Below, piece by piece: positions 60,748 to 62,849 of a DNA stretch of 64,000 bases (positions within the stretch are counted from its first letter, which is position 1; each line of letters opens with the position of its first letter). The stretch is from NCBI RefSeq assembly GCF_013167455.1, contig NZ_CP038328.1. One strand, written 5' to 3'. The notes under the pieces were generated by a model that saw only the letters and a program-made list of their open reading frames with translations, was not told the origin of the DNA and did not search any database. The stretch is from Escherichia coli O157:H7. Its GTDB lineage: Bacteria; Pseudomonadota; Gammaproteobacteria; Enterobacterales; Enterobacteriaceae. The position numbers and the translations under genes are program-made.

Positions 60748-61968
<1,221 letters not shown>

Positions 61969-62046
61969 TCACCACATCAACCAGGCAACATGCCCGACTT
62001 GTTGAATGCAATAAACAGAAGGAAAAAACAGGGAGGAGAAAAGAAG

Positions 62047-62122
62047 TGGTGCTGATAGGCAGATTCGAACTGCCGACCTCACCCTTACCAAGGGTGCGCT
62101 CTACCAACTGAGCTATATCAGC
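62047..62122 (-). tRNA. thrT: tRNA-Thr (GGU)
   Basis: Reverse complement GCTGATATAGCTCAGTTGGTAGAGCGCACCCTTGGTAAGGGTGAGGTCGGCAGTTCGAATCTGCCTATCAGCACCA. Confidence 0.95.
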
Positions 62123-62128
62123 ACATCT

Positions 62129-62203
<75 letters not shown>

Positions 62204-62319
62204 ATCCTGGAACTCGGCTACCTGATTTTCATTCTGCACTGAATATCGAGAGAAGCTCTCTTTATTCGAGCCGGTAAGCGAACTTATCGTCTCGGGCTAC
62301 GCCATCGCGTGGCCGAAAT

Positions 62320-62404
<85 letters not shown>

Positions 62405-62412
62405 GGACTTGA

Positions 62413-62488
<76 letters not shown>

Positions 62489-62502
62489 ATCAAGTAGCGC
62501 GC

Positions 62503-62531
62503 ATTCTATGGAGACATGCGAGTTCATGCAA
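62503..62531 (-). promoter_or_regulatory. thrU-tyrU-glyT-thrT-tufB operon promoter
   Basis: Minus strand TTGCAT-N17-TAGAAT followed by GCGCGC discriminator; AT-rich UP-like sequence upstream. Confidence 0.75.
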
Positions 62532-62849
62532 CTAAAAAATTGCATAATTTGTTTTATTGGTCACATTTTATGCGACACGATGAAGAAACAGCCGAATGGA
62601 GGGCAGATTAGCACACTTTTTCAACATCATTGTGCTCAACAATGCGCTCCTGCTAAACCATAATTCTTTTTATCAGATGGAATATCTGTCACATTGCTTT
62701 TCAACGATAGCTTCCTGGGAGAGATTTTTTCTTATTATTCCTCCCCATCTGGTGTTACCCTCCTGCCCATTAACCCATTCAACAGAACTGTGACGCGCCA
62801 TGGCAAATATCGCTTTGCCGATAGAGCTATGACCGCCAGAAACATGCTT

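What the first reader, a model, noticed from the sequence alone, without database searches (positions are those of the whole stretch)
62204..62319. 116-nt spacer between glyT and tyrU inside the tRNA-tufB operon
thrU and tyrU are separated by 8 nt and glyT and thrT by 6 nt, but tyrU and glyT are separated by 116 nt of moderately structured sequence with no ORF. Long intra-operon tRNA spacers can yield stable processed fragments. Worth checking for a stable RNA species, although it is probably conserved spacer.
Basis: inference. Interest (0 to 1): 0.15.

Follow-up and report, generated by a model that had tools for sequence, protein, structure and literature searches.

The report
Structured spacer inside the tRNA-tufB operon
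The 116-base gap between two tRNA genes upstream of E. coli tufB is a weakened copy of a folded RNA spacer kept across enteric bacteria, with three hairpins and an unchanging 12-base motif just before the glycine tRNA, and it is probably a processing element of the tRNA precursor rather than a gene of its own.

Summary
thrU, tyrU, glyT and thrT lie on the minus strand with gaps of 8, 116 and 6 nt, and the 116-nt gap (window 62204-62319) has no ORF, promoter-like site, Rfam match or RefSeq annotation.

The E. coli sequence alone folds no better than shuffles (z -0.64). Comparison across about 100 Enterobacterales species changes the picture:
- The tyrU-glyT gap is always long (87-321 nt).
- Three hairpins covary (86.7% of cells paired against 36-52% in slid controls; 24 of 40 pairs with compensatory changes).
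- Most genera fold it into a stable four-way junction (median z -4.6).
- GGUAGCCGAGUU sits unchanged 7-8 nt before glyT in 75 of 87 distinct spacers.

Vibrio and Aeromonas have only 35-38 nt here but keep the U-rich start and a GAGUU. The ends are therefore old, and the structured middle is an Enterobacterales insertion. Both ends match the RNase E consensus.

My best reading is a cis-acting structured transcribed spacer that is cut out during precursor processing. A stable trans-acting product is possible but untested. It is a single-locus element, and it is not RtT, a tRNA or a terminator. The E. coli copy is structurally eroded. Interest is modest.

The parts
62204..62319 (-). The whole tyrU-glyT internal transcribed spacer, 116 nt. 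The RNA sense is the minus strand, and spacer nt p corresponds to window position 62320-p.
   Evidence: The covariance model R1 hits exactly this interval (64 bits, E 2.7e-12) and nothing else in the 64-kb window.
62315..62319 (-). U-rich start (AUUUC) directly after the tyrU CCA. It reads as an RNase E-like site, CCAA|UUUC.
   Evidence: 70 of 87 distinct spacers begin with N0-2 followed by UUU. In 62 of 87, an RN|WUU match places a cut 0-3 nt after CCA. The consensus comes from PMC5222698. Cleavage itself is inferred.
62295..62314 (-). Hairpin H1 (spacer nt 6-25): GGCCACGC GAUG GCGUAGCC, with one C.A mismatch.
   Evidence: Five of the six modelled pairs have compensatory changes in the CM alignment (four of six in the plain MAFFT alignment), and about 94% of cells are paired. 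In E. coli the upper stem has pair probability 0.92-0.98.
62268..62293 (-). Hairpin H2 (spacer nt 27-52): GAGACGAUAAG UUCG CUUACCGGCUC, with two mismatches in E. coli.
   Evidence: Seven of 10 pairs have compensatory changes and 90.5% of cells are paired. In E. coli itself the probability is only about 0.13, so this hairpin is eroded here.
62248..62260 (-). Hairpin H3 (spacer nt 60-72): GAGAG CUU CUCUC.
   Evidence: All 8 inner pairs of the family H3 have compensatory changes. In E. coli the probability is about 0.9. In 38 of 77 distinct spacers H3 is flanked by an A-tract and at least 5 U, which E. coli lacks. The reverse complement is flagged as terminator-like on the + strand.
62223..62236 (-). 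Conserved CAG followed by an A-rich stretch (spacer nt 84-97). In most genera this is the 3' strand of the junction-closing helix P1 (CAGAAAG).
   Evidence: A85 and G86 are invariant and C84 is at least 90% conserved. P1 is predicted in most genera but has weak covariation and a probability near 0 in E. coli.
62211..62222 (-). Invariant motif GGUAGCCGAGUU (spacer nt 98-109). It includes GCCGAG, which can pair with the 5' UUCGGC, and an RNase E-like GAG|UU.
   Evidence: Eleven of its 12 columns are invariant and the twelfth is at least 90% conserved. The exact motif is present in 77 of 87 distinct spacers. It ends 7-8 nt before glyT +1 in 75 of them and 3 nt before it in the two Xenorhabdus spacers. 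It occurs once in the window and once per E. coli genome. GAGUU is also present in the 35-38-nt spacers of Vibrio and Aeromonas.
62204..62210 (-). The last 7 nt of the glyT 5' leader (CCAGGAU), up to the RNase P site.
   Evidence: This stretch is less conserved than the motif.
62312..62317 (-). 5' strand (UUCGGC, spacer nt 3-8) of the possible end-to-end closing helix with GCCGAG (window 62213-62218).
   Evidence: It forms part of the E. coli MFE (probability about 0.25). RNAalifold picks it. It is compatible in 95.8% of cells, but all changes are one-sided and wobble-preserving, with no compensatory change.

Best explanation
The 116 nt are a transcribed spacer with a conserved fold. It acts in cis while the thrU-tyrU-glyT-thrT-tufB precursor is cut up.

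The two ends are old processing signals. One is a U-rich stretch right after the tyrU CCA. The other is a GAG|UU about 8-9 nt before glyT. Both fit the RNase E cleavage consensus, and both are also found in the 35-38-nt spacers of Vibrio and Aeromonas.

In Enterobacterales about 80 nt were inserted between these ends. That insert is kept folded as three hairpins. In most genera a closing helix turns it into a compact four-way junction. The folding keeps the insert from interfering with folding of the neighbouring tRNAs. It also hides a long untranslated stretch from nucleases and from Rho, and it brings the tyrU 3' end and the glyT 5' end close together.

RNase E cuts at both ends and RNase P cuts at glyT +1. 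Together these would release tyrU with a 1-3-nt trailer, glyT with a short leader, and a spacer RNA of about 105 nt whose ends pair (UUCGGC/GCCGAG in E. coli).

Shown here: the layout, the covarying hairpins, the invariant motif and its fixed distance from glyT, the single-locus distribution, and the phylogenetic pattern. Inferred: the cleavage sites, the purpose of the folding, and the fate of the excised piece. The E. coli copy keeps H1, H3 and the end motifs but has lost much of H2 and the closing helix.
For: - Gaps of 8, 116 and 6 nt. The tyrU-glyT gap is long in all 95 related loci, while the neighbouring gaps stay at 3-26 and 3-6 nt.
- Per-sequence folds of 77 distinct spacers give a median z of -4.55, with 93% below -2. 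Most adopt the same four-way junction.
- On a plain MAFFT alignment, 86.7% of cells are paired against 36-52% when partners are slid. 24 of 40 pairs carry compensatory changes, the covariation score is 0.26 against at most 0.10, and 0 of 500 shuffles reach it. The CM alignment gives the same picture.
- G.U pairs favour the transcribed strand: 90.5% against 75.9% paired in H2.
- The 12-nt motif is invariant at a fixed 7-8 nt from glyT.
- RNase E-type RN|WUU matches lie at both ends (consensus from PMC5222698). RNase E cutting 1-3 nt after CCA is the textbook first step of tRNA operon processing (abstract of PMC2190699).
- Vibrio and Aeromonas have 35-38-nt spacers with the same U-rich start and a GAGUU.
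- The end-to-end helix is compatible in 95.8% of cells.
- There is no promoter-like site and no sense-strand terminator in the spacer, so it is not a separate transcription unit.
- There is exactly one copy per locus in 693 kb searched and one per E. coli genome.
Against: - No cleavage or expression data were available, so the RNase E sites rest on a degenerate 5-nt consensus. Only 62 of 87 spacers (5' end) and 58 of 87 (3' end) match it fully.
- A processing signal does not obviously need 12 invariant bases. tRNA-level invariance of GGUAGCCGAGUU points to a specific partner (protein or RNA) that this model does not name.
- The closing helices (P1 and the end-to-end helix) lack compensatory changes.
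- The other two junctions of the operon work with 6-8 nt and no hairpins, so the model does not explain why the insert is retained rather than deleted.
- E. coli has let H2 and P1 erode, which argues that the fold is not critical.
Confidence: 0.45

Rival explanations
1. The excised spacer is a stable trans-acting RNA, a sponge or decoy in the manner of 3'ETS-leuZ or RtT. The hairpins are a nuclease-resistant scaffold. The invariant GGUAGCCGAGUU is the seed or binding site for a conserved sRNA or protein. Output of the tRNA/EF-Tu operon would thereby be linked to another regulatory circuit.
For: - The pattern is a variable, covarying scaffold plus an invariant 12-nt stretch.
- The small hairpin predicted around the motif shows no covariation. 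Changes on its 5' side are not compensated, so the motif is conserved as sequence.
- Paired termini would protect an excised RNA.
- In half of the spacers H3 is followed by at least 5 U, and an (ARN)3-like AGAAAGAAC follows. My own knowledge marks both as Hfq-binding features.
- Precedents exist for tRNA-spacer RNAs with trans roles.
Against: - No expression, Hfq/ProQ or interaction data were found for this spacer.
- The motif lies at the extreme 3' end of the would-be product, without a terminator hairpin or U-tail behind it.
- No partner could be searched genome-wide.
- The motif shows no special complementarity to the tufB leader.
- The fixed 7-8-nt distance from glyT fits a cis role better.
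- E. coli lacks the U-tract.
Confidence: 0.2
2. It is an internal transcription attenuator or pause site. H3 with its U-tract partly terminates or pauses RNA polymerase after thrU-tyrU, setting the ratio of the first two tRNAs to glyT-thrT-tufB.
For: 38 of 77 distinct spacers have the pattern A-tract, GAGA, loop, UCUC, then at least 5 U. The hairpin sits between two halves of the operon.
Against: - The G+C core of H3 is worth only about -2.5 kcal/mol, and -7 to -8 with the A:U extension.
- The consensus terminator scan does not flag it in Citrobacter.
- E. coli, Kosakonia, Buttiauxella and others have no U-tract.
- Superficieibacter lacks H3 altogether.
- glyT is considered essential and has no promoter of its own here (PMC6134099).
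Confidence: 0.08
3. It is a decayed remnant of an inserted element, either an RtT-type repeat or a tRNA pseudogene. The insertion used the tRNA-Tyr 3' end as a hotspot, and the remnant now has no function beyond being tolerated.
For: - RtT units have inserted at exactly this point in Intestinirhabdus, Cedecea and a Buttiauxella MAG (117.7, 107.5 and 29.7 bits).
- All three E. coli tRNA-Tyr genes are followed by long transcribed spacers.
- The outgroups have only 35-38 nt, so the middle was inserted.
- The topology is cloverleaf-like.
- Short shared strings exist (CGGCUCGA, CGAAUAA), by inspection.
Against: - The RtT CM does not hit the spacer at E up to 10.
- The spacer HMM against RtT and the RtT HMM against spacers give nothing significant (E about 0.4; no canonical spacer hit below E 0.8).
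- The tRNA CM and ARAGORN find no tRNA-like signal.
- Compensatory changes and tight length conservation (106-120 nt at 65% identity) show ongoing selection, not neutral decay.
Confidence: 0.12
4. It is a tRNA-like 'punctuation' substrate. The four-way junction starts at the first or second base after the tyrU CCA, so RNase P would cut at its 5' edge and make the tyrU 3' end directly. RNase P does this at the tightly packed tRNA junctions.
For: P1 begins at spacer nt 1-2 in most genera and the fold is a four-way junction. RNase P alone separates several polycistronic tRNA transcripts (abstracts of PMC2190699 and PMC4176162).
Against: - Helix and loop sizes are unlike a tRNA.
- There is no tRNA CM signal.
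- No RCCA follows the P1 3' strand.
- P1 has weak covariation and is essentially absent in E. coli.
Confidence: 0.05

Closest known systems
RtT RNA / rttR (Rfam RF00391), the repeat unit transcribed downstream of tyrT-tyrV
   Same: Both are non-coding stretches of more than 100 nt, co-transcribed with a tRNA-Tyr gene and starting immediately 3' of it. Both are released only by processing and both are structured. In some species an RtT unit sits in this very gap, between tyrU and the canonical spacer.
   Different: There is no detectable sequence or profile similarity. The spacer does not end in a copy of the tRNA-Tyr 3' end. It is single-copy rather than a tandem repeat. It lies between two tRNAs rather than at an operon end.
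tRNA-operon spacer RNAs that act as sRNA sponges (3'ETS-leuZ of glyW-cysT-leuZ; the ITS of metZ-metW-metV)
   Same: Both are by-products of polycistronic tRNA processing that are conserved among enterobacteria. RNase E generates the known example (PMC5222698; PMC7914890). Both combine conserved short sequence with structure.
   Different: No Hfq binding, sRNA partner or accumulation is known for the tyrU-glyT spacer. 3'ETS-leuZ ends in the operon's intrinsic terminator, which this spacer lacks. This spacer is larger and more elaborately folded.
Processing stems and transcribed spacers of rRNA operons
   Same: Both are spacers whose primary sequence drifts while helices are kept by compensatory change. 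In both, the ends pair to present cleavage sites and bring flanking mature RNAs together.
   Different: Different nucleases are expected: RNase III acts on long rRNA stems, and the helices here are too short for that. The context is a tRNA-mRNA operon. No boxA-type antitermination sequence was recognisable (by inspection).

Membership tests
RtT RNA (RF00391) | Match to the Rfam covariance model at or above the gathering score of 45 bits | tested here: not met
   No RtT match in window 61800-62800 even at E up to 10. The same model scores 117.7 and 107.5 bits on true RtT units in L044 and L026. Profile HMM searches in both directions are negative.
RtT RNA (RF00391) | Located directly downstream of a tRNA-Tyr gene and co-transcribed with it | tested here: met
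   The spacer starts at the base after the tyrU CCA.
RtT RNA (RF00391) | The unit ends with a copy of the tRNA-Tyr 3' end (TCCTTCCCCCACCACCA) and is tandemly repeated | tested here: not met
   The spacer ends ...GAGTTCCAGGAT. It has a single copy per genome. The RtT units of the tyrT locus and of L044 and L026 do end that way.
tRNA-spacer-derived sRNA sponge (3'ETS-leuZ type) | A discrete processed RNA accumulates in vivo | not testable with these tools
   No transcriptome data were available, and no report was found.
tRNA-spacer-derived sRNA sponge (3'ETS-leuZ type) | Binds Hfq and base-pairs with defined sRNAs through a conserved accessible stretch | tested here: inconclusive
   An invariant 12-nt stretch without covariation support for pairing exists. 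No partner could be searched genome-wide, and there are no binding data.
tRNA or tRNA-like gene (RF00005 / ARAGORN) | Cloverleaf with tRNA-sized arms recognised by tRNA models | tested here: not met
   ARAGORN finds only the four known tRNAs. The Rfam tRNA model gives no hit in the spacer at E up to 10 in E. coli, or at E up to 1 in 7 other genera. A four-way junction is present, but its arms are 7-13 bp with 4-nt loops.
Intrinsic terminator / attenuator | G+C-rich hairpin followed by a U-run on the transcribed strand | tested here: not met
   There is no sense-strand site in the window spacer. The only hit is the reverse complement of H3 on the + strand. The Citrobacter H3 is not flagged. Its core stem is worth -2.5 kcal/mol.
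Independent sRNA gene | Own promoter and own terminator | tested here: not met
   No sigma-70-like promoter or sense terminator lies within 62204-62319. The spacer is flanked on both sides by co-transcribed tRNA genes.
Any curated RNA family (Rfam 15) | Match to one of the 4227 covariance models | tested here: not met
   Only the flanking tRNAs, RtT in the insertion-bearing species, and sub-threshold noise were found (for example sX4 at 26.9 bits against a gathering score of 70, overlapping tyrU in L025).

The most novel reading that the evidence does not exclude
The spacer is excised as a stable RNA of about 105 nt with paired ends. Its invariant GGUAGCCGAGUU would be the docking site for a conserved sRNA or RNA-binding protein. 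This would be an Enterobacterales-wide regulatory by-product, made in proportion to tRNA/EF-Tu operon transcription, that couples growth-rate-controlled synthesis of the translation machinery to a post-transcriptional network. It would be a second, structurally distinct class of tRNA-spacer regulator beside 3'ETS-leuZ and RtT.
Probability: 0.15. Interest if true: 0.6.

Novelty: new variant of a known kind. Interest (0 to 1): 0.35.

Why it matters
The tRNA-tufB operon is among the most strongly expressed and longest-studied transcription units in E. coli. The 116-nt gap has appeared in sequence records for decades without annotation.

Showing that it belongs to a covarying RNA fold with a tRNA-grade invariant motif, absent from Rfam, gives a concrete and testable element. 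It could inform three things:
- how mixed tRNA-mRNA precursors are dismantled;
- why all tRNA-Tyr genes in E. coli carry long transcribed trailers;
- whether abundant spacer by-products are used as regulators.

If it is only a processing scaffold, it is a tidy but ordinary example of spacer evolution by compensatory change.

Tried and rejected
- **Known RNA family.** Rfam at permissive thresholds on the window and on 11 related loci found nothing in the spacer.
- **RtT homology.** The CM and two HMM directions, with a shuffled control, were all negative. Shared 7-8-mers are not significant.
- **tRNA pseudogene.** The tRNA models give no signal.
- **Small ORF.** None was found. Only 2- and 4-codon AUG frames without a Shine-Dalgarno sequence are present (by inspection).
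- **Internal promoter (sigma-70, sigma-54, sigma-E).** The scan finds no sigma-70-like site. The others were rejected by inspection.
- **Repeat or mobile element.** The CM finds one copy per locus in 693 kb, and blastn finds one per E. coli genome.
- **Pairing of the 3' module with the tufB leader.** Duplex energies are no better than shuffles (-19.3 against -19.0 kcal/mol).
- **CsrA site.** CAGGAUG spans the glyT junction in E. coli but is lost in Buttiauxella, Mangrovibacter, Cedecea and Xenorhabdus.
- **rrn-type boxA.** There is only a GCUC...AACA resemblance, by inspection.
- **Literature.** Eight full-text searches and nine papers turned up no statement about this spacer. The RIL-seq supplements are not held, and the TIER-seq supplements contain none of the four gene names searched.
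- **CM re-alignment.** It did not fix the register of H3 in the Escherichia, Kosakonia and Buttiauxella types, so the H3 counts are underestimates.

Full report
**1. Observation**

ARAGORN finds four tRNA genes on the minus strand: thrT(ggt) at 62047-62122, glyT(tcc) at 62129-62203, tyrU(gta) at 62320-62404 and thrU(tgt) at 62413-62488. tufB starts at about 61932 and coaA lies divergently upstream. Read along the RNA, the gaps are 8, 116 and 6 nt, so the reported interval 62204-62319 is exactly the tyrU-glyT gap. The K-12 record has the same layout and annotates nothing in the gap.

No ORF of 20 aa or more lies inside the gap. No promoter-like site or sense-strand terminator lies there either. 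The spacer is present in 5420 of 5426 complete E. coli genomes, at 99% identity or more in 5415, once per genome and unannotated.

**2. The E. coli sequence alone is unremarkable**

Its MFE is -31.8 kcal/mol against -29.45 +/- 3.67 for dinucleotide shuffles, z = -0.64. No Rfam family matches it even at E up to 10.

**3. Comparative picture**

- **Loci collected.** A scan of species-representative genomes, anchored on the thrU 3' end and the tyrU 5' end, returned 100 loci. They include many Enterobacteriaceae genera, Rosenbergiella, Xenorhabdus and Serratia symbiotica.
- **Gap lengths.** In every locus with the full operon the tyrU-glyT gap is long. It is 106-120 nt in most, 87 nt in Superficieibacter, 99-106 nt in Xenorhabdus, 177-183 nt in Rosenbergiella and 238-321 nt in five loci. 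The other two gaps stay at 3-26 and 3-6 nt.
- **Sequence conservation.** Overall identity is modest, at 65% mean pairwise. E. coli against the others has a median of 53%. This is similar to the DNA upstream of the promoter (66%) and below the thrT-tufB leader (81%). The tRNAs are at 99%.
- **Per-sequence folds.** Of 77 distinct spacers, 93% fold better than shuffles by more than 2 sd, with a median z of -4.55.
- **The common fold.** In Citrobacter, Enterobacter, Klebsiella, Kluyvera, Raoultella and others the MFE is the same four-way junction. A closing helix P1 (CUUUCUG/CAGAAAG) starts at the first base after the tyrU CCA. It encloses hairpins H1, H2 and H3. A 3' tail follows, holding GGUAGCCGAGUU.

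**4. Covariation**

On the plain MAFFT alignment (A1) I tested a structure that I named from these folds:
- 86.7% of cells are paired, against 36-52% when partners are slid by 1-3 columns.
- 24 of 40 pairs carry compensatory changes.
- The covariation score is 0.26, against at most 0.10 in the slid controls.
- 0 of 500 shuffles reach any of the measures.

H1 (4 of 6 pairs), H2 (7 of 10) and inner H3 (8 of 8) carry the compensatory signal. P1 has little. The small hairpin around the motif has none, because its 3' side never changes.

A covariance model built from this gives the same picture on its own alignment. It finds exactly one hit per locus in 693 kb, including one hit in the 64-kb window at 62204-62319. 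The element is therefore a single-locus feature, not a repeat. G.U pairs favour the transcribed strand.

An alternative end-to-end helix pairs YGGC near the 5' end with the GCCG of the motif. RNAalifold chose it. It is compatible in 95.8% of cells, but only through one-sided, wobble-preserving changes. It competes with the base of H1, which does have true compensatory changes (column 9 with column 24).

**5. The invariant motif**

GGUAGCCGAGUU is essentially invariant across the 77 aligned sequences: eleven of its 12 columns never change and the twelfth is at least 90% conserved. The exact motif is present in 77 of 87 distinct spacers. It ends 7-8 nt before glyT +1 in 75 of them and 3 nt before it in the two Xenorhabdus spacers. 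Rosenbergiella and one Klebsiella-like/Cedecea group differ by one base. It occurs once in the window and once per E. coli genome.

**6. Phylogenetic depth**

I used EF-Tu to pull tufB loci from other lineages.
- Erwinia (158-160 nt), another Enterobacterales genome (192 nt) and Photorhabdus (101 nt) keep the 3' module UACAG...CAGGUAGCCGAGUUC. The upstream hairpins differ.
- Aeromonas (38 nt) and Vibrio parahaemolyticus (35 nt) have short spacers without the hairpins. They still begin with a U-rich stretch after CCA and still contain GAGUU 9-17 nt before glyT.

The ends of the spacer are therefore older than the roughly 80-nt structured middle, which looks like an insertion in the Enterobacterales lineage.

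**7. Relation to RtT**

In Intestinirhabdus, Cedecea and a Buttiauxella MAG the extra length is an RtT unit (RF00391; 117.7, 107.5 and 29.7 bits). Each unit ends in a copy of the tRNA-Tyr 3' end. The canonical spacer of about 116 nt then follows.

The E. coli tyrT-tyrV locus shows the same RtT architecture. All three E. coli tRNA-Tyr genes thus carry long transcribed trailers, and this site is an insertion hotspot. The spacer itself, however, is not detectably related to RtT. The RtT CM does not hit it. Profile HMMs in both directions find nothing significant.

**8. E. coli is an eroded member**

Pair probabilities in the E. coli sequence are 0.92-0.98 for the top of H1 and about 0.9 for H3. 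They are about 0.13 for the family-type H2, about 0 for P1 and about 0.25 for the end-to-end helix. Intestinirhabdus has a near-identical sequence type with perfect H1 and H2 helices, which shows what E. coli has lost. E. coli also lacks the A-tract/U-tract that flanks H3 in 38 of 77 spacers.

**9. Mechanism**

Both conserved ends fit the RNase E consensus RN|WUU (PMC5222698).
- At the 5' end, E. coli reads CCAA|UUUC. A full match that places a cut 0-3 nt after CCA occurs in 62 of 87 spacers.
- At the 3' end, GAG|UU(U/C) is present, and GAGUU is found in 86 of 87 spacers.

RNase E cutting 1-3 nt after CCA is the standard first step for tRNA operons (PMC2190699 abstract). Cuts at both sites would release spacer nt 2-107 in E. 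coli. The ends of that piece form a 6-bp helix, UUCGGC/GCCGAG.

I therefore favour a cis-acting structured spacer. Its old processing signals sit at the ends, and its insert is kept compact by selection. Compactness would avoid interference with tRNA folding, limit exposure to nucleases and Rho, and keep the two cleavage sites together. This part is inference.

The model does not explain why 12 bases are as invariant as a tRNA. That keeps the trans-acting (sponge or decoy) reading alive at about 0.2.

The remaining alternatives are weaker:
- **Attenuator.** The H3 core is only -2.5 kcal/mol. There is no U-tract in several genera, and H3 is absent in Superficieibacter.
- **RNase P pseudo-substrate.** The arms are unlike a tRNA, and P1 is weak.
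- **Neutral relic.** Covariation and length conservation contradict it.

**10. Novelty and verdict**

The gap itself has been in sequence records for decades (from my own knowledge of the early 1980s operon sequences, not checked here). I found no description of its conserved fold or motif in Rfam 15, in RefSeq annotation or in the searchable literature (literature calls listed above).

It is best filed as a new variant of a known kind, a structured transcribed spacer of a tRNA operon. It resembles RtT and the ETS/ITS RNAs in how it arises but is a member of neither.

For the window in hand the element is real but degenerate. The interest lies mainly in the family and in the unexplained invariant motif.

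Noticed in passing
L044:4168-4299, L026:632-756 (minus strand), L035:4436-4599: RtT (RF00391) units are inserted between tyrU and the canonical spacer in Intestinirhabdus alba, Cedecea sulfonylureivorans and a Buttiauxella MAG. In Intestinirhabdus and Cedecea the unit ends in a copy of the tRNA-Tyr 3' end; no such end was found in the Buttiauxella MAG. The tRNA-Tyr 3' end therefore looks like a recurrent insertion or recombination point for RtT.
   Followed up: partly
window 62248-62260 (+ strand): The reverse complement of hairpin H3 (GAGAGAAGCTCTC followed by TTTATTCGAG) is flagged as terminator-like on the strand antisense to the operon. No gene reads into it from that side.
   Followed up: no
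L003:3906-3992, L086:685-771: The two 87-nt spacers (L003 is Superficieibacter electus; the species of L086 was not shown) lack hairpin H3 entirely while keeping P1, H1, H2 and the 3' motif. This is a natural deletion variant that would be useful for testing what H3 does.
   Followed up: no
L115:2333-2500 (also L118, L121): In Aeromonas, and in a MAG labelled Plesiomonas, ARAGORN reports only tRNA-Tyr and tRNA-Gly upstream of tufB. The sequence after glyT looks like a degenerate tRNA-Thr (GCTGATATGGCTCAGG...CCATCAGTACC), and no thrU is called upstream.
   Followed up: no
L051 (contig UREK01000005.1, labelled uncultured Clostridiales): This contig matches the enterobacterial thrU-3'/tyrU-5' pattern exactly but continues Thr(tgt)-Tyr(gta)-Leu(cag) with gaps of 7 and 6 nt. 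It is either a different tRNA cluster or a mislabelled or chimeric MAG contig.
   Followed up: no
L014:4225-4286 (minus strand): There is a full-length match to Rfam P26 (RF00630, 68.7 bits against a gathering score of 36) in the Shimwellia locus, several kb from the tRNA operon. The equivalent place in the window was not examined.
   Followed up: no
L123:2052-2228: The Sodalis sp. MAG has no recognisable tyrU. There are 177 AT-rich nt between thrU and glyT, with a degraded version of the motif (AGTAGCTGATTT) just before glyT.
   Followed up: no
L011:4228-4257 (+ strand): A sigma-70-like promoter match (TTTAAA, 18-nt spacer, TATATT) lies in the thrT-tufB leader of Citrobacter youngae, downstream of the tRNAs. 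The window scan does not flag the equivalent place in E. coli.
   Followed up: no
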